DNA of 32,000 nucleotides, taken from positions 750,001-782,000 of the forward strand of contig NZ_CP011391.1 in NCBI RefSeq assembly GCF_001564455.1, written 5' to 3'. A program made the translations under genes and the position numbers. Shown one piece after another: positions 15,640-19,165 of the stretch (position 1 is the first letter of the stretch; the number at the start of each line of letters is the position of its first letter). The notes under the pieces were generated by a model that saw nothing but the letters and a program-made list of their open reading frames with translations, had not been told where the DNA came from and did not search any database. This stretch comes from Faecalibaculum rodentium (GTDB lineage Bacteria; Bacillota_I; Bacilli_A; Erysipelotrichales; Erysipelotrichaceae).

Positions 15640-15665
15640 ACAACAGCAGGTTCATCCCTTCATTC

Positions 15666-15714
15666 AACAGATCTGTTTCGTGTGATCGCAAAACAGATCT
15701 GTTTTATGTTTTCG
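15666..15714 (+). terminator. guaB terminator built from two copies of a palindrome
   Basis: aacagatctgttt (15666-15678) pairs with aaacagatctgtt (15691-15703): a 13-bp perfect stem with a 12-nt loop, followed by ttttatgtttt. Each arm is itself a DNA palindrome (see findings). Confidence 0.65.
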
Positions 15715-15779
15715 CATGACCCGGTCCGCTCTGGAGCTGTTCTGCCCATACCGTACTGGAAGAGAATCCGGTAAAATGA

Positions 15780-16892
15780 ATGCTGATGGATGCTCATACA
15801 GATCTGCTGCTGGACCTGAACATACTGTCCAGAGCAACACAGAAGTATTATGACAGGCAGCTGCAGCCCTTTAACCTGACTTACGCACAGCTGCCCGTCC
15901 TGCTGATGATTTATGAAGGTGAAGGCATTACCGCCAACCAGATCGTCAACCAGGGTCAGTACGACAAAGGAACCGTAACGAAAAATGTACAGAAGCTGGA
16001 AGCACAGGGATACATAGAATCCTCTCTGTCCAGGACTGACAAGCGGCTGCGTCATCTCTATACCACAGATCTTGCGAAAACCGTGATTGCTCAGATTTAT
16101 GCCATTCGCCGTGACTGGTGGAATCACCTGATGACAGCGATTCCCTGTGGGGAGGTACCGCTGTTTCTGTCACAGACCCGGGCTCTGGTGGAGAATGCGA
16201 TTGTCGCTTCCAACACACAAAGCATGCCGCTCCTGTTCTATCGTATGGAACGTCTCTCAGCCCGGGCCTGGCCAGGGCGGCTTGCCATGGTCCTGCACGT
16301 CACAGGCTGTAATTTCCGCTGCCCGGGTTGTCAACAGAGGTCACGGATCATGCTGCCGGAAGATGCACGGCTTCTGGATCCGGGCAGCATCCGGGAGGAG
16401 ATCGACCGTCGAAGCGGATTTGTGGATGGCATCGTGATTACAGGCGGTGAACCATTCCTGCAGAATGGTCTGATTTCCTTTCTCAGGGATCTGAAAGACA
16501 AGCATATTCCGGTCCGAATCAAAACCAACGGATTGTTTCCTGACCCCCTGGCCTGCTGTCTGCAGGAGGGACTTGTACAGGAAGTTTCTCTGGAGATCCG
16601 CAACGACCTGCGGCACTATGCAGCCAGTGCCGGGCTGAAGTCCTTTGATCCGGGGCCCCTGACCAGAAGCCTGAAACTGCTGGGGAATGCAGAAATATCC
16701 TGGGATGCAGTTCTGGAAGTGGACGACAGCTGGTTCCAGGATTCGGATCCCGGACAGCTGGCTGCACTTCTGGCGGATGCGGATCACATTCGTGTCATCA
16801 ATCACAAAAGGACAGAACAGTGTGTGGATCCAAACCTCGGTCCCATGGATGAACACGGCTACAGAGACTGGAAAGAGAGGCTGGAGAAGTGA
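15780..16892 (+). CDS. nrdG: MarR-family wHTH domain fused in frame to the anaerobic ribonucleotide reductase activating protein (NrdG, radical SAM), 370 aa
   Basis: The N-terminal ~145 aa has a MarR pattern (LTYAQLPVLLMIYEGEGITANQIV...KGTVTKNVQKLEAQGYIESSLSRTDKRLRHLYTT). The C-terminal 222 aa carries CNFRCPGC (CX3CX2C), VDGIVITGGEPFLQ and RIKTNG. There is no stop codon between the halves. The TGA overlaps the nrdD GTG. Confidence 0.8.
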   Translation: MLMDAHTDLLLDLNILSRATQKYYDRQLQPFNLTYAQLPVLLMIYEGEGITANQIVNQGQYDKGTVTKNVQKLEAQGYIESSLSRTDKRLRHLYTTDLAKTVIAQIYAIRRDWWNHLMTAIPCGEVPLFLSQTRALVENAIVASNTQSMPLLFYRMERLSARAWPGRLAMVLHVTGCNFRCPGCQQRSRIMLPEDARLLDPGSIREEIDRRSGFVDGIVITGGEPFLQNGLISFLRDLKDKHIPVRIKTNGLFPDPLACCLQEGLVQEVSLEIRNDLRHYAASAGLKSFDPGPLTRSLKLLGNAEISWDAVLEVDDSWFQDSDPGQLAALLADADHIRVINHKRTEQCVDPNLGPMDEHGYRDWKERLEK

Positions 16893-18838
16893 ACTGGCAG
16901 GTGGTAAAACGGGATGGCACAGCTGTGGCATTTGATGTGGGAAAAATCATGAAAGCCATGGAAAAGGCATTTGCAAGCCTCGGGGATGTTCCCGACCGCA
17001 GCATTCTGCAGATGCTGGCTCTCCGGGTGAGTGCAGATTTTATGCCCAAAGTGTCGGACGGCCGGATTTCTGTGGAACAGATCCAGGACAGTGCAGAACG
17101 GATCCTGTCTCTGGCCGGATATGCGGAGGCTGCGAAGGCCTATATTCTTTACCGGAAACAGAGAGAACATGTACGGGCTCTTGAGGACAGCTCCAGCCGG
17201 TATGCCTCACTGACAAAATCCTATCTCGAGCGTCCTGAATCCACAGGAAGTCAGGAAATGGATGCCGTCTACTCTCTGGGCGGGCTGATGCTTTCCAATT
17301 CAGGGGAAGTGACCCGTCATTACTGGCTGGGTTCCATATTCGATGAACAGTCAGCCCGGGCGCACAACGATGGATGGCTCCATATCCATGATCTGGAAAT
17401 GCTGGCACCCGGCAGTGCAGGCTGGGACATTCGGGGTCTGATTCAAAAGGGGCTCCATGTCAGGGGACAGATATCTTCCCGACCCCCGAGACATCTCAAC
17501 GCACTTTGTGCCCAGCTGGTGAATTTCATTACCATCATGCAGAATGAATGGTCCGGAGCCCAGTCGATCAGTCATTTTGATACCTGCCTTGCTCCTTTCG
17601 TGAAAAAAGACGGCCTGCGGCCTGAACAGGTCAAGAGTGCAATGGAAACCCTGGTCTATGGCCTGAACACCCCCAGCCGTTGGGGGACACAGCCGGCATT
17701 CTCCAATGTGGTATTCGATCTTTGTGTGCCCCGGGAGTGGAAAGATGCAGAGGCGGACCCTGACAGTGGAATCCGGTATGGGGACTGTGAGCCGGAAATG
17801 CAGATGATCCGGGAGGCGTTCTTCAGCGTTCTTGCGGATGGAGATACAGAAGGCCGGGGGTTCCCCTTTCCAATTCCAGTGATCCGCATCGACCGGGCCT
17901 GTCCAGAGGAACGCGAAATCTTTGAGGCTGCTGCCCGATATGGAAATCCTGTCTTTGCAAGAAACAGTCCGCCGATGGAAGGCTTTTTCTCCTGGGAAGG
18001 GGGCCGGTGCAGTCTTGGGGCTGTGACTTTGAATCTCCCCAGAATTGCCTGGAGCAGCCGGGATGAAGAGAGCTTTTTCCGGAAACTGGAGGAAACTGCC
18101 AGACTTGCGGCCAGGATCCTGGAAACACGCAGGCAGGTGATCCGGCGGTTTTTCGACAGCGGTCTGTATCCATGCACAAAGGGATATCTGGAATCTCTGG
18201 ACAGCGGCTATTGTGCCATCGGTGTCATCGGCATGAATGAAGCCTGTCAGAATGCATGTTTTATCCACCAGGATCTCAGGTCCGGACGCGGGCAGGCATT
18301 TGCAGTCAAAGTACTGCAGTTTCTCAGAGATATCACTGACAGCCTTGACCGGTTTGTGCTCATGGCTACACCTGCAGAAGGTGTATCTCAGCGGCTGGCG
18401 GAGCTGGATCTGCAGACTTGTCAGGGAATCAGAACGGCGGGTACTGCCGAAGCTCCCTATTATACAAATTCCTCCCAGCTGGCTGTCGATGCGACCGATG
18501 ACCTGTTCGAAGCTGTCAGGATTCAGGAGAGACTGCAGCAGTTCTTTTCCGGCGGCTGTTTTTTCAGCATCCCCTACACCAGTAAGCTTGGCAGCCGGGA
18601 ACTCGCTCTTCTGGAAAAACGTTTGCAGGAGAAAAGCTTCCTGCCTGTCTTTGCATTTTCCCCCACATGGTCGGTTTGTCCCAGGCATGGATTTTCTTCC
18701 GGCAGACAGGAAAGCTGTCCTGTCTGTCGGACAGAAGCAGAGGTATGGATTCGTGTTTCCGGGTATTATCGACCTCTCAGCCAGGTCAACAAAGCGAAAA
18801 AGCAGGAATATCAGGACCGGAAGGTGTATATGATCTGA
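16889..18838 (+). CDS. nrdD: Anaerobic ribonucleoside-triphosphate reductase (class III RNR), 649 aa
   Basis: N-terminal ATP-cone (VVKRDGTAVAFDVGKI...). C-terminal zinc ribbon plus glycyl-radical motif CPVC...RVSGYYRPLSQVNKAKKQEYQDRKVY. The GTG start overlaps the upstream stop (GTGA). SD aaagagagg lies 8 nt upstream. Confidence 0.93.
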   Translation: MNWQVVKRDGTAVAFDVGKIMKAMEKAFASLGDVPDRSILQMLALRVSADFMPKVSDGRISVEQIQDSAERILSLAGYAEAAKAYILYRKQREHVRALEDSSSRYASLTKSYLERPESTGSQEMDAVYSLGGLMLSNSGEVTRHYWLGSIFDEQSARAHNDGWLHIHDLEMLAPGSAGWDIRGLIQKGLHVRGQISSRPPRHLNALCAQLVNFITIMQNEWSGAQSISHFDTCLAPFVKKDGLRPEQVKSAMETLVYGLNTPSRWGTQPAFSNVVFDLCVPREWKDAEADPDSGIRYGDCEPEMQMIREAFFSVLADGDTEGRGFPFPIPVIRIDRACPEEREIFEAAARYGNPVFARNSPPMEGFFSWEGGRCSLGAVTLNLPRIAWSSRDEESFFRKLEETARLAARILETRRQVIRRFFDSGLYPCTKGYLESLDSGYCAIGVIGMNEACQNACFIHQDLRSGRGQAFAVKVLQFLRDITDSLDRFVLMATPAEGVSQRLAELDLQTCQGIRTAGTAEAPYYTNSSQLAVDATDDLFEAVRIQERLQQFFSGGCFFSIPYTSKLGSRELALLEKRLQEKSFLPVFAFSPTWSVCPRHGFSSGRQESCPVCRTEAEVWIRVSGYYRPLSQVNKAKKQEYQDRKVYMI

Positions 18839-18996: not shown

Positions 18997-19083
18997 GCCC
19001 GGATGGCGAAATTGGTAGACGCAGCAGACTCAAAATCTGCCGGCAGCAATGTCGTACCGGTTCGAGTCCGGTTCTGGGCACCA
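18997..19083 (+). tRNA. tRNA-Leu(CAA), encoded CCA
   Basis: Acceptor GCCCGGA/TCTGGGC. Anticodon stem GCAGA/TCTGC with loop CTCAAAA. Long variable arm, T loop GGTTCGAGTCC, and a terminal ACCA. Confidence 0.93.
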
Positions 19084-19089
19084 TAGCAT

Positions 19090-19165
19090 GGGGTGTTAGC
19101 TCAGCTGGGAGAGCGCTACGCTGGCAGCGTAGAGGTCAGGGGTTCGAACCCCCTACGCTCCACCA
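19090..19165 (+). tRNA. tRNA-Ala(GGC), encoded CCA
   Basis: Acceptor GGGGTGT/ACGCTCC with the G3:U70 alanine identity pair. Anticodon loop CTGGCAG, T loop GGTTCGAACCCC, and a terminal ACCA. Confidence 0.93.

What the first reader, a model, noticed from the sequence alone, without database searches (positions are those of the whole stretch)
15780..16892. In-frame fusion of a MarR-type DNA-binding domain to the class III RNR activase NrdG, translationally coupled to nrdD
Seen in the sequence: one uninterrupted 370-codon frame. Residues 1-145 read as a complete MarR-family wHTH (…LTYAQLPVLLMIYEGEGITANQIVNQGQYDKGTVTKNVQKLEAQGYIESSLSRTDKRLRHLYTT…). Residues 149-370 read as a complete NrdG-type radical-SAM activase. 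That half has CNFRCPGC = CX3CX2C at Cys177/181/184 (nt 16308-16331), VDGIVITGGEPFLQ, and RIKTNG. Met149 (ATG 16224) sits where stand-alone NrdG proteins usually begin, about 36 residues before the end of the Cys motif. No stop codon separates the halves, and the 15 nt before 16224 (ccaacacacaaagc) contain no Shine-Dalgarno. The activase therefore seems to be made only as a fusion. Its TGA overlaps the GTG of nrdD (GTGA, 16889-16892), and the order is activase then reductase. I saw no NrdR-box-like A/T-rich palindromes upstream. Inference: tethering a DNA-binding domain to an O2-labile [4Fe-4S]/SAM enzyme could let transcription of the anaerobic RNR operon respond directly to cluster integrity, SAM, or engagement with NrdD. 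That logic would differ from NrdR or Fnr control. I do not recall this architecture being described, but I cannot query architecture databases here.
Basis: partly seen in the sequence, partly recalled or inferred. Interest (0 to 1): 0.7.

Follow-up and report, generated by a model that had tools for sequence, protein, structure and literature searches.

The report
MarR regulator fused to RNR activase
A gut bacterium makes the enzyme that switches on its oxygen-free DNA-building-block enzyme as one protein with a DNA-binding regulator; across its order that regulator's predicted target sequence lies at promoters of such genes, suggesting an undescribed control system.

Summary
One uninterrupted ORF (15780-16892; probable true start ATG 15786) encodes a complete MarR domain joined to an NrdG2-type radical-SAM activase, overlapping nrdD by 4 nt. 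It is not an artefact: all 80 species-level Erysipelotrichales loci examined have the same fusion followed by an nrdD-type gene. No paper describing it was found.

New here: this MarR subfamily is associated with an 18-bp palindrome, TAGTTGAA-NN-TTCAACTA. It lies on the fusion's own promoter in 50 of 81 loci (about 0.8 expected). In genera whose fusion promoter lacks it (Holdemanella, Dubosiella, Faecalicoccus, Catenisphaera), it lies upstream of a second, classical nrdD-nrdG operon.

So the fusion is most likely a dedicated class III RNR regulator with an activase-derived effector domain.

Caveats. The window's promoter and all 32 kb lack the box, so its target is unidentified. The twin palindromes upstream are the guaB terminator. 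Several lineages lost the cluster cysteines but keep the protein under purifying selection, which weakens the "Fe-S integrity sensor" idea. DNA binding is untested.

The parts
15661..15713 (+). guaB intrinsic terminator. Two perfect AACAGATCTGTT palindromes (15666-15677 and 15692-15703) pair into a 13-bp hairpin followed by TTTTATGTTTT. This is not the operator.
   Evidence: dG -27.1 kcal/mol, z = -4.7. Relatives have an ordinary guaB terminator hairpin plus T-run at the same place. The element is not conserved even in the congener L001.
15768..15777 (+). Probable promoter -10 region, CCGGTAAAAT (hexamer TAAAAT at 15772-15777), 8 nt before ATG 15786. This is leaderless-type geometry. No -35 element and no operator box are recognisable.
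   Evidence: The same element is conserved in L001 and L211. A TAnnnT hexamer lies 6-7 nt before the ATG in 29 of the 40 clade A loci (the 11 without one include the window, scored from 15780) and in 0 of 41 clade B loci. The generic promoter scan found nothing here.
15780..16892 (+). MarR-NrdG fusion ORF as called (370 codons including the first ATG). The probable true start is ATG 15786, giving 368 aa.
15786..16223 (+). Complete MarR domain: helices a1-a6 plus a beta-wing. The recognition helix a4 covers residues 63-75 (nt 15966-16004). The wing covers residues 79-95 (nt 16014-16064). Family-invariant residues are R18, E46, D62, K63, K68, L73, D87 and R89.
   Evidence: Pfam. AF2 model with pLDDT 91. 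Foldseek TM 0.90 to DNA-bound SlyA 3Q5F and 0.81-0.91 to MarR 3BPV/3BPX. Alignments A1, A3 and A6. omega = 0.08 against L001.
16224..16889 (+). NrdG2-type radical-SAM activase half. CX3CX2C is at nt 16308-16331. GGEP covers residues 222-225 (nt 16443-16454). TNG covers residues 249-251.
   Evidence: Foldseek TM 0.73 to PFL-activating enzyme 3C8F. The half is diverged: 111 bits against a cutoff of 131, and omega = 0.25.
16889..18838 (+). nrdD, a class III ribonucleotide reductase of the Thermotoga-like (NrdD2/NrdDh-type) lineage. The GTG start overlaps the fusion's TGA. The ATP-cone covers residues 4-93. The glycyl-radical motif RVSGY covers residues 622-626 (nt 18752-18766).
   Evidence: NF006126, 625 bits against a cutoff of 548; closest solved structures 4COI/4U3E.

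Best explanation
The gene encodes a bifunctional protein that is conserved across the order Erysipelotrichales. Its N-terminal MarR dimerisation and DNA-binding domain belongs to a MarR subfamily whose operator is the palindrome TAGTTGAA-NN-TTCAACTA. Its C-terminal half is an NrdG2-type radical-SAM activase. That half sits next to, and in most lineages probably still activates, the Thermotoga-type NrdD encoded immediately downstream.

The protein most likely represses class III RNR promoters by sitting on that operator. The operator overlaps the -35 element, or covers the transcription start and 5'UTR. The activase-derived domain would serve as the effector module that modulates DNA binding. 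Candidate signals are SAM, the Fe-S cluster state, or engagement with NrdD and its ATP-cone.

In one part of the family the operator is on the fusion's own promoter, which gives autoregulation. In the window's part of the family it has been lost from the fusion's promoter. In sister genera it is found instead on a second, classical (T4/E. coli-type) nrdD-nrdG operon, which gives trans-regulation of one class III RNR by a component of the other.

For this window I infer that the protein acts in trans on a site outside the 32 kb.

What is shown: the architecture, its conservation, the operator's distribution and the selection pattern. What is inferred: DNA binding, repression, the signal, and the target in this genome.
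For: Architecture and conservation:
- Domains and fold are confirmed.
- The fusion is followed by an nrdD-type gene in 80 of 80 species-level loci, with no second activase within 6 kb on either side.
- About 30 clusters at 50% identity are fused.

The operator box:
- A match of at least 10/12 occurs in 50 of 81 fusion upstream regions, nearly all between -17 and -68. Elsewhere in these loci there are 24 such matches in 812 kb, so about 0.8 would be expected.
- A sequence logo and paired boxes spaced 31-37 bp apart support a defined element.
- It overlaps the -35 element or the transcription start.

Link between the box and this MarR subfamily:
- Among 80 metagenome contigs with an exact box, 7 have a stand-alone GNAT-linked MarR homologue starting next to it. 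One more (L156) has a MarR gene cut off by the contig end.
- Four contigs have a classical nrdD-nrdG starting next to the box.
- Those stand-alone MarRs share the invariant recognition-helix and wing residues.

Trans targets:
- A perfect 12/12 box lies at -45 to -57 of the classical nrdD in Dubosiella muris, D. newyorkensis, Faecalicoccus acidiformans, Catenisphaera and one unnamed relative. That is 5 of 6 loci chosen without reference to the box.
- Holdemanella, found through the box scan, has it too.
- Catenisphaera has a second box before its separate nrdG.
- These are the species whose fusion promoter lacks the box.

Selection:
- The MarR half is more constrained than the activase half in the window's clade: omega 0.08 against 0.25.

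A regulatory role independent of catalysis:
- Cys-less lineages keep the fusion under constraint (omega 0.05-0.08) next to an intact NrdD.
- Dubosiella keeps the fusion plus a partner in which only the ATP-cone is conserved.

Other regulators:
- No NrdR-like box lies upstream of any of these operons.
Against: - The window has no box match of at least 10/12 anywhere in its 32 kb. Its closest relatives L001 and L211 have none either. The target in this genome is therefore unidentified.
- No named Faecalibaculum classical NrdD appeared among the top hits. The genus may lack the presumed trans target.
- Allobaculum mucilyticum's classical nrdD has no box.
- Binding of the box by the fused MarR domain is inferred from association only. 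Another regulator could bind it.
- dS is saturated in several comparisons, so the omega values are rough.
- The window's activase half scores below the NrdG2 trusted cutoff, so even its activase activity is an inference.
Confidence: 0.6

Rival explanations
1. In this organism the protein is simply the NrdG activase of the adjacent NrdD. The MarR fold survives as a dimerisation or scaffolding module, and DNA-dependent regulation has been lost along with the operator.
For: - No box lies at the promoter or anywhere in the 32 kb, nor in the closest relatives.
- No classical Faecalibaculum nrdDG was found.
- The Cys triad, GGEP motif and an intact NrdD are retained, with a 4-nt overlap between the genes.
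- MarR helices a1, a5 and a6 are a dimer interface, and NrdD and NrdG work as dimers (established knowledge).
Against: - The residues that stay invariant are the DNA-reading ones: D62, K63, T65 and K68 in the recognition helix, and D87 and R89 in the wing.
- The MarR half is under stronger constraint than the enzyme half, with omega 0.08 against 0.25.
- Sister genera that are equally box-less at the fusion promoter carry perfect boxes at a second nrdDG operon.
Confidence: 0.17
2. The protein is purely a transcription factor. Its NrdG-like half is a non-catalytic sensor (a pseudo-enzyme), and the adjacent NrdD is activated by another activase, or serves mainly as a nucleotide-sensing partner.
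For: - The window's activase half is among the most diverged in the family: 111 bits against a cutoff of 131, compared with 204-211 bits in clade B. Dubosiella scores the same, and its partner NrdD is catalytically dead.
- omega is 0.25.
- Cys-less lineages show that the family can function without a cluster.
- Sister genera carry a separate short NrdG.
Against: - The window keeps CX3CX2C, GGEP and TNG.
- Its NrdD is intact and scores above its equivalog cutoff, with a glycyl-radical motif.
- No other activase lies in the window.
- Short TIGR02491-type NrdGs are not known to activate Thermotoga-type NrdDs. This last point is my inference, not something I tested.
Confidence: 0.13
3. The conserved palindrome is bound by some other regulator of the order, and the fused MarR domain recognises a different, unidentified site.
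For: - The association is correlative.
- Boxes occur at classical nrdD genes where no MarR gene is adjacent.
- The box is missing at many fusion promoters.
Against: - The box sits at the start of unrelated, GNAT-linked stand-alone MarR genes that share the fusion's recognition residues. This is typical MarR autoregulation.
- An 18-bp palindrome with 8-bp half-sites suits a MarR dimer.
- Within 6 kb either side of the fusion the box is essentially confined to the fusion promoter.
Confidence: 0.08
4. The fusion is an assembly or sequencing artefact that joins two separate genes.
For: None found.
Against: - The same single ORF appears in 80 of 80 independent species genomes and in more than 140 protein clusters, down to about 30% identity.
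- The short 'MarR-only' hits are adapter chimeras or truncations.
- The AF2 model shows a6 running almost directly into the first beta-strand of the activase half, with pTM 0.77.
Confidence: 0.01

Closest known systems
BirA, and other bifunctional enzyme-repressors or 'trigger enzymes' such as NadR and PutA
   Same: One polypeptide carries an N-terminal (winged-)helix DNA-binding domain and an enzyme domain that acts on a protein or metabolite of the regulated pathway. The state of the enzyme domain is expected to gate operator binding. In clade B the operator lies on the protein's own operon.
   Different: The DNA-binding domain is a full MarR fold. The enzyme is a radical-SAM glycyl-radical activase. 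In the window's clade the operator is on another operon rather than its own. No coupling mechanism has been shown. I recall no such pairing being described, and literature searches found none.
NrdR (Zn-ribbon plus ATP-cone repressor of RNR operons)
   Same: Both would be dedicated transcriptional regulators of ribonucleotide reductase genes that act through paired palindromic boxes at RNR promoters. A possible use of an ATP-cone, here on the partner NrdD, is suggested by Dubosiella retaining only the cone.
   Different: The proteins are not homologous. The box differs: TAGTTGAA-NN-TTCAACTA here, against the ACACWATATATWGTGT-type NrdR box. No NrdR-like box lies upstream of these operons. The shared string in the E. 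coli nrdHIEF oligo is a coincidence with different spacing.
Stand-alone NrdG2 (TIGR02495) activases and PFL-activating enzyme
   Same: The C-terminal half has the CX3CX2C motif, the GGEP SAM motif and a partial TIM-barrel fold (TM 0.73 to 3C8F). It lies next to nrdD.
   Different: About 150 residues of MarR domain are appended with a linker of only 5-8 residues. The window's copy scores below the equivalog cutoff. Some family members have lost the cluster cysteines.
MarR-family autoregulators (MarR, SlyA, OhrR), including the GNAT-linked stand-alone MarRs found here
   Same: The complete MarR fold is present (TM 0.9 to SlyA). A palindromic operator overlaps promoter elements. The stand-alone relatives share the recognition residues and the same box.
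   Different: The usual small-molecule or oxidation-sensing pocket is supplemented or replaced by a covalently attached enzyme domain. The targets are RNR genes.
Fe-S transcription factors (FNR, IscR, NsrR, WhiB-like)
   Same: If the radical-SAM [4Fe-4S] cluster gates DNA binding, the logic would resemble O2 sensing by FNR, which activates nrdDG in E. coli.
   Different: The cluster would be a catalytic SAM-binding cluster. Cys-less family members show that a cluster is not required for the protein to be retained.

Membership tests
MarR family (Pfam PF01047 / PF12802) | The winged-HTH HMM match is above the gathering threshold. | tested here: met
   MarR_2 scores 51.5 bits (cutoff 27) and MarR scores 40.6 bits (cutoff 24.6), both over residues 32-89.
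MarR family (Pfam PF01047 / PF12802) | The complete fold is present: a1-a2-a3-a4, a beta-wing, then a5-a6. | tested here: met
   The AF2 model (pLDDT 91) shows all six helices and the wing. Foldseek gives TM 0.90 and rmsd 1.2-1.7 to SlyA 1LJ9/3Q5F, and TM up to 0.91 to MarR 3BPX.
MarR family (Pfam PF01047 / PF12802) | A dimer binds a palindromic operator at a regulated promoter. | tested here: inconclusive
   A family-level operator was found at fusion and nrdD promoters and at related stand-alone MarR genes. It is absent from this window. Binding itself cannot be tested with these tools.
NrdG2-type class III RNR activase (NCBIfam TIGR02495) | The equivalog HMM score is above the curated cutoff. 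| tested here: not met
   The window scores 111.1 bits against a cutoff of 131.15. Relatives score 126-211 bits, and clade B scores 204-211. This is still by far the best-scoring family for that half.
NrdG2-type class III RNR activase (NCBIfam TIGR02495) | The CX3CX2C [4Fe-4S] motif and the GGE SAM-binding motif are present. | tested here: met
   C177, C181 and C184 form the motif, and GGEP is at residues 222-225.
NrdG2-type class III RNR activase (NCBIfam TIGR02495) | The gene is linked to nrdD. | tested here: met
   There is a 4-nt overlap with an intact nrdD. An nrdD-type gene follows the fusion in 80 of 80 species loci.
NrdG2-type class III RNR activase (NCBIfam TIGR02495) | The protein generates the glycyl radical on NrdD. 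| not testable with these tools
   This needs anaerobic reconstitution and EPR.
Radical SAM superfamily (PF04055) | The HMM match is above the gathering threshold. | tested here: met
   The score is 49.4 bits against a cutoff of 29.5. Foldseek gives TM 0.73 to PFL-AE 3C8F.
NrdR regulon | The regulator has a Zn-ribbon plus ATP-cone, and NrdR boxes lie upstream. | tested here: not met
   The fusion has no such domains. The best NrdR-box score upstream of the 81 operons is at most 12/16, and no match lies upstream of this operon.
Bifunctional enzyme-repressors (BirA-like 'trigger enzymes') | A DNA-binding domain and a catalytic domain sit in one polypeptide. | tested here: met
Bifunctional enzyme-repressors (BirA-like 'trigger enzymes') | An operator lies at the promoter of the pathway's own genes. 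| tested here: inconclusive
   This is met in relatives, either at the fusion's own promoter or at the classical nrdDG operon. It was not found in this window.
Bifunctional enzyme-repressors (BirA-like 'trigger enzymes') | The state of the enzyme domain controls DNA binding. | not testable with these tools
   This requires biochemistry.

The most novel reading that the evidence does not exclude
Erysipelotrichales have an RNR-specific transcription system unrelated to NrdR. It consists of a MarR domain fused to an NrdG-type activase, working together with its ATP-cone-bearing NrdD partner. The system reads the state of one class III RNR (Thermotoga-type) and sets transcription of class III RNR genes through the TAGTTGAA-NN-TTCAACTA operator. 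Those genes include a second, T4/E. coli-type nrdD-nrdG operon. In some lineages the pair has become purely regulatory: the activase is Cys-less, or the NrdD is reduced to a conserved ATP-cone.
Probability: 0.4. Interest if true: 0.85.

Novelty: new variant of a known kind. Interest (0 to 1): 0.72.

Why it matters
Regulation of ribonucleotide reductase is central to DNA precursor supply. In bacteria it is known mainly through NrdR, FNR and Fur.

If the inference is right, a whole order of abundant gut bacteria controls its anaerobic RNR genes with a different device: a transcription factor whose effector domain is the radical-SAM activase itself. That would be the first case I know of where a glycyl-radical activase doubles as, or evolves into, a DNA-binding regulator.

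It offers a natural series from active enzyme to pseudo-enzyme: cysteines intact, cysteines lost, and a partner NrdD reduced to its ATP-cone. It also suggests cross-talk between two chemically different class III RNRs in one cell.

It gives a concrete, testable operator sequence and a defined protein to test it with. On the practical side, these proteins are annotated only as 'activating protein', so the DNA-binding half is invisible in current annotation.

Tried and rejected
1. **Twin palindromes as the operator.** I considered the twin AACAGATCTGTT palindromes (15666-15703) as the MarR operator and rejected this. They fold into a hairpin followed by a T-run at the position of the guaB terminator seen in relatives. 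They are absent even from the congener. The third near-copy at 15797 merely encodes the conserved T-D-L-L residues.
2. **NrdR boxes.** None lies upstream of any of the 81 operons.
3. **NrdR preprint hit.** A preprint contains both half-site strings. This is a coincidence in the E. coli nrdHIEF oligo, which has 6-nt rather than 2-nt spacing.
4. **Short 'MarR-only' proteins as evidence for split genes.** These are adapter-derived chimeras or truncations. Only P0209 looks like a genuine stand-alone relative.
5. **Second activase near the fusion.** None lies within 6 kb either side in the 80 loci, nor beside the Cys-less versions.
6. **Classical nrdDG in the window's own genus.** No named Faecalibaculum hit appeared in two searches, and the cluster look-up returned no names. 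This remains unresolved.
7. **AFDB architecture and description search.** The library was unavailable.
8. **Near-identical strain L081.** It is too similar to be informative about upstream conservation.
9. **Generic sigma-70 scan.** It found no promoter upstream of the fusion. The promoter call rests on comparative evidence.
Full report
**Observation**

The window contains an uninterrupted 370-codon ORF at 15780-16892 on the + strand.

- Pfam finds MarR_2 and MarR at residues 32-89, and Radical_SAM and Fer4_12 from residue 170.
- NCBIfam's best match for the C-terminal half is TIGR02495 (NrdG2) over residues 157-334, E = 4e-32. The score of 111 bits is below the curated cutoff of 131.
- CNFRCPGC (C177/C181/C184, nt 16308-16331), GGEPFLQ and KTNG are present. 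Met149 is ATG 16224 with no Shine-Dalgarno before it. The TGA overlaps the GTG of nrdD at 16889-16892.
- The downstream gene is an intact NrdD. It has an ATP-cone and NRDD domains, scores 625 bits on NF006126 against a cutoff of 548, and has the glycyl-radical motif RVSGY at residues 622-626.
- An exhaustive HMMER search shows that stand-alone NrdGs align from their residues 2-15 to query residues 150-163.
- Met149 is not conserved among homologues, so an internally initiated stand-alone activase is unlikely.

**Not an artefact, and widespread**

- All 120 top-listed homologue clusters are 360-411 aa (the shortest, P0094, is 360 aa) and carry both MarR and Radical_SAM domains, with identity down to about 30%.
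- About 30 representatives at 50% identity are fused.
- A scan of species-representative genomes with an alignment of the MarR half found 189 candidate genomes. The 80 best are essentially all from Erysipelotrichales genera: Faecalibaculum, Dubosiella, Catenisphaera, Holdemanella, Absicoccus, Faecalicoccus, Faecalitalea, Floccifex, Longicatena, Holdemania, Sharpea, Dielma, Solobacterium and Eggerthia.
- In all 80, one ORF of 353-423 aa carries both halves and is followed directly by an nrdD-type gene. There is no second activase-like gene within 6 kb on either side.
- The short 'MarR-only' hits are adapter chimeras or truncations.
- The nearest relatives of the window are a 98%-identical mouse-gut contig, a 67%-identical contig with the same synteny, and a Faecalibaculum MAG (L001).
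- I found no paper describing the architecture. Public sources name these proteins only 'anaerobic ribonucleoside-triphosphate reductase activating protein'.

**Structure**

An AlphaFold2 model built on 88 homologues is confident, with pLDDT 91 and pTM 0.77. Residues 9-144 form a full MarR fold: a1-a4, a beta-wing, then a5-a6. Helix a6 runs, through a linker of about 8 residues, into the first beta-strand of the activase barrel. Foldseek matches the N-terminal half to SlyA, including the DNA complex 3Q5F (TM 0.90), and to MarR 3BPV/3BPX. It matches the C-terminal half to PFL-activating enzyme 3C8F (TM 0.73). No solved chain spans both halves.

**Upstream region of the window**

I tested whether they are an operator and rejected that reading.

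- Together they form a 13-bp hairpin followed by UUUAUGUUUU (dG -27.1 kcal/mol, z = -4.7).
- They sit exactly where relatives have an ordinary guaB terminator.
- They are not conserved even in the congener.

Relatives start at the residue equivalent to Met3. In 29 of the 40 clade A loci a TAnnnT hexamer lies 6-7 nt before the ATG. The 11 without one include the window, which was scored from the called start at 15780. None of the 41 clade B loci has it; those have a Shine-Dalgarno instead. The window's CCGGTAAAAT (ending at 15777) is conserved in L001 and L211. So the true start is probably ATG 15786, on a leaderless or nearly leaderless mRNA. This is an inference.

**A conserved operator for the family**

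Many orthologous promoters carry TAGTTGAA-NN-TTCAACTA.

- Scored as AGTTGA-N4-TCAACT, 50 of 81 upstream regions have a match of at least 10/12, nearly all between -17 and -68 of the start codon. Elsewhere in the same loci there are 24 such matches in 812 kb, so about 0.8 would be expected.
- The logo is natTAGTTGAAnnTtCAACTAttt. Eighteen loci have a second, weaker box, most often 31-37 bp away.
- In clade B (L040-L080), which has a Shine-Dalgarno, the boxes cover the transcription start and often the -35 element.
- In the box-bearing part of clade A, which is guaB-linked with leaderless-type promoters, the box overlaps the -35 element.
- These are repressor positions. No NrdR-like box occurs upstream of any of these operons.

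**Tying the box to this MarR subfamily**

A scan of metagenome contigs for the exact box returned 80 loci.

- Seven have a stand-alone MarR gene, 23-27% identical over the full MarR half (29-36% in local tblastn matches), starting within tens of bases of the box and followed by a GNAT gene.
- One more (L156) has two boxes 37 bp apart before a MarR gene that is cut off by the contig end. This is the clade B fusion pattern.
- Four have the box directly upstream of a classical nrdD followed by a short nrdG.
- The stand-alone MarRs share every invariant position of the fusion's DNA-reading head: R16, Q35, E44, G47, D60-K61-x-T63-x-x-K66 and D85-x-R87.

**The window's clade**

The window, its relatives L001 and L211, and Dubosiella, Holdemanella, Absicoccus, Catenisphaera and some Faecalicoccus have no box at the fusion promoter. 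The window has none of at least 10/12 anywhere in 32 kb. The window's recognition helix is nevertheless the same as in box-bearing clade A species. Its MarR half is more constrained than its activase half: against L001, 82% identity versus 56%, and omega 0.08 versus 0.25.

The explanation comes from the four classical nrdD contigs.

- One encodes, residue for residue, the Holdemanella biformis/hominis NrdD.
- Clade A species therefore have two class III systems. One is the fusion with a Thermotoga-like NrdD, whose closest solved structures are 4COI and 4U3E (this is the NrdD2/NrdDh-type lineage of PMC4493059). The other is a T4/E. coli-like 724-aa NrdD (9D3X and 1H78) with a TIGR02491 NrdG.
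- I fetched the classical locus from named species that also carry the fusion. A perfect 12/12 box lies at -45 to -57 of nrdD in Dubosiella muris, D. newyorkensis, Faecalicoccus acidiformans, Catenisphaera adipataccumulans and one unnamed relative. Apart from two further matches in Catenisphaera, it is the only match of at least 10/12 in each locus.
- One of those Catenisphaera matches is an 11/12 box before its separately transcribed nrdG. Allobaculum mucilyticum has none.
- The simplest reading is that in this clade the fusion acts in trans on the other class III operon.

For the window's own genus I could not find the classical operon: there was no named Faecalibaculum hit. So the target in this genome remains a prediction.

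**Evidence that the family has a role beyond catalysis**

- Seven of 142 fused proteins lack CX3CX2C.
- Among species genomes, six form one clade (Absicoccus and relatives). They show progressive loss of the cysteines but retain GGEP and TNG. Their NrdD is intact and constrained, with pN/pS 0.08-0.12. The fusion is under purifying selection in both halves, with omega 0.05 and 0.08.
- Other Cys-less representatives appear to belong to separate lineages.
- In four Dubosiella species the gene after the fusion is only 373-400 aa. It consists of an ATP-cone that is 88-90% identical among three of them (pN/pS about 0.1), plus a remnant of about 280 aa that Pfam no longer recognises and that evolves almost neutrally, with no glycyl-radical domain.
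- The P0144 lineage has both a Cys-less fusion and an NrdD-like protein with no glycyl-radical motif.
- TIGR02495 scores fall from 204-211 bits in clade B to 111 bits in the window and in Dubosiella.
- These patterns argue that the protein is kept for something other than radical generation. They also argue that cluster integrity cannot be the universal signal, and they hint at the NrdD ATP-cone as a partner sensor.

**Conclusion**

The architecture is real, order-wide and undescribed. The regulatory interpretation is strongly supported at the family level by a newly recognised operator.

The most likely mechanism is operator occlusion at class III RNR promoters by a MarR dimer whose affinity is set by its covalently attached activase domain. 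For this genome, the operator lies outside the window. DNA binding, the signal and activase activity are all untested.

I rate it a new variant of a known kind: a one-component or 'trigger-enzyme' regulator with an unprecedented effector domain and an RNR-specific regulon.

Noticed in passing
L003 7146-8276, L004 7156-8301, L013 7146-8267, L031 7103-8305 (Dubosiella species): The gene after the fusion is a 373-400 aa protein, not a full NrdD. It has a strongly conserved ATP-cone (88-90% identity among three of the species, pN/pS about 0.1). The remaining ~280 aa is unrecognisable and evolves almost neutrally, with no glycyl-radical domain. The same species keep a full classical NrdD elsewhere.
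   Followed up: partly
L005, L007, L010, L017, L020, L037; also L082 and L084: These fusions have lost the CX3CX2C cysteines but keep GGEP and TNG, and remain under purifying selection. Most sit next to an intact NrdD. In L084 the NrdD-like partner also lacks the glycyl-radical motif. Where the functional activase is encoded is unknown.
   Followed up: partly
L115, L135, L155, L095, L128, L141, L125 (metagenome contigs): These contigs carry a stand-alone MarR plus GNAT acetyltransferase gene pair. The exact TAGTTGAA-NN-TTCAACTA box lies at the MarR gene's start. The function of the pair is unknown.
   Followed up: partly
window 15666-15703: The guaB terminator is unusual. Each arm of its hairpin is itself a perfect palindrome (AACAGATCTGTT, which contains a BglII site), and the arms belong to a 25-nt direct repeat spaced 26 nt apart.
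   Followed up: yes
window 18690-18740 (NrdD C-terminus): The NrdD Zn-site region reads C-P-R-H ... C-P-V-C, with His in place of the second Cys of the usual four-Cys site. Relatives have CPEH...CPVC or similar.
   Followed up: no
L043 7131-9530: In Longicatena the NrdD downstream of the fusion carries a C-terminal thioredoxin/glutaredoxin-like extension with a CPNC motif. This fits a redoxin-dependent NrdD subtype.
   Followed up: no
L207 about 2925-2950, L209, L210, L097 (classical nrdD promoters): A conserved GTATACT(T)-N-AGTAC segment, which includes the probable -10 element, lies about 10-20 nt upstream of the box at classical nrdD promoters in several genera. It may be only the promoter, or it may be a second element.
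   Followed up: no
window 3659-8515 and 29958-32000; 18997-19162; 15-896: The window holds two rRNA operons (16S, 23S, 5S, and the start of a second operon). Two tRNA genes lie just after nrdD, and a DDE transposase gene lies at the left end. Otherwise the region is housekeeping: aroA, cls, a fumarase/aspartase-type lyase, a pullulanase-type enzyme, guaB, mnmA, recD2, alaS and mltG.
   Followed up: yes
L208 (Allobaculum mucilyticum classical nrdD): This is the only classical nrdD locus examined that has no box. Whether this species also lacks the fusion would be a useful natural control.
   Followed up: no
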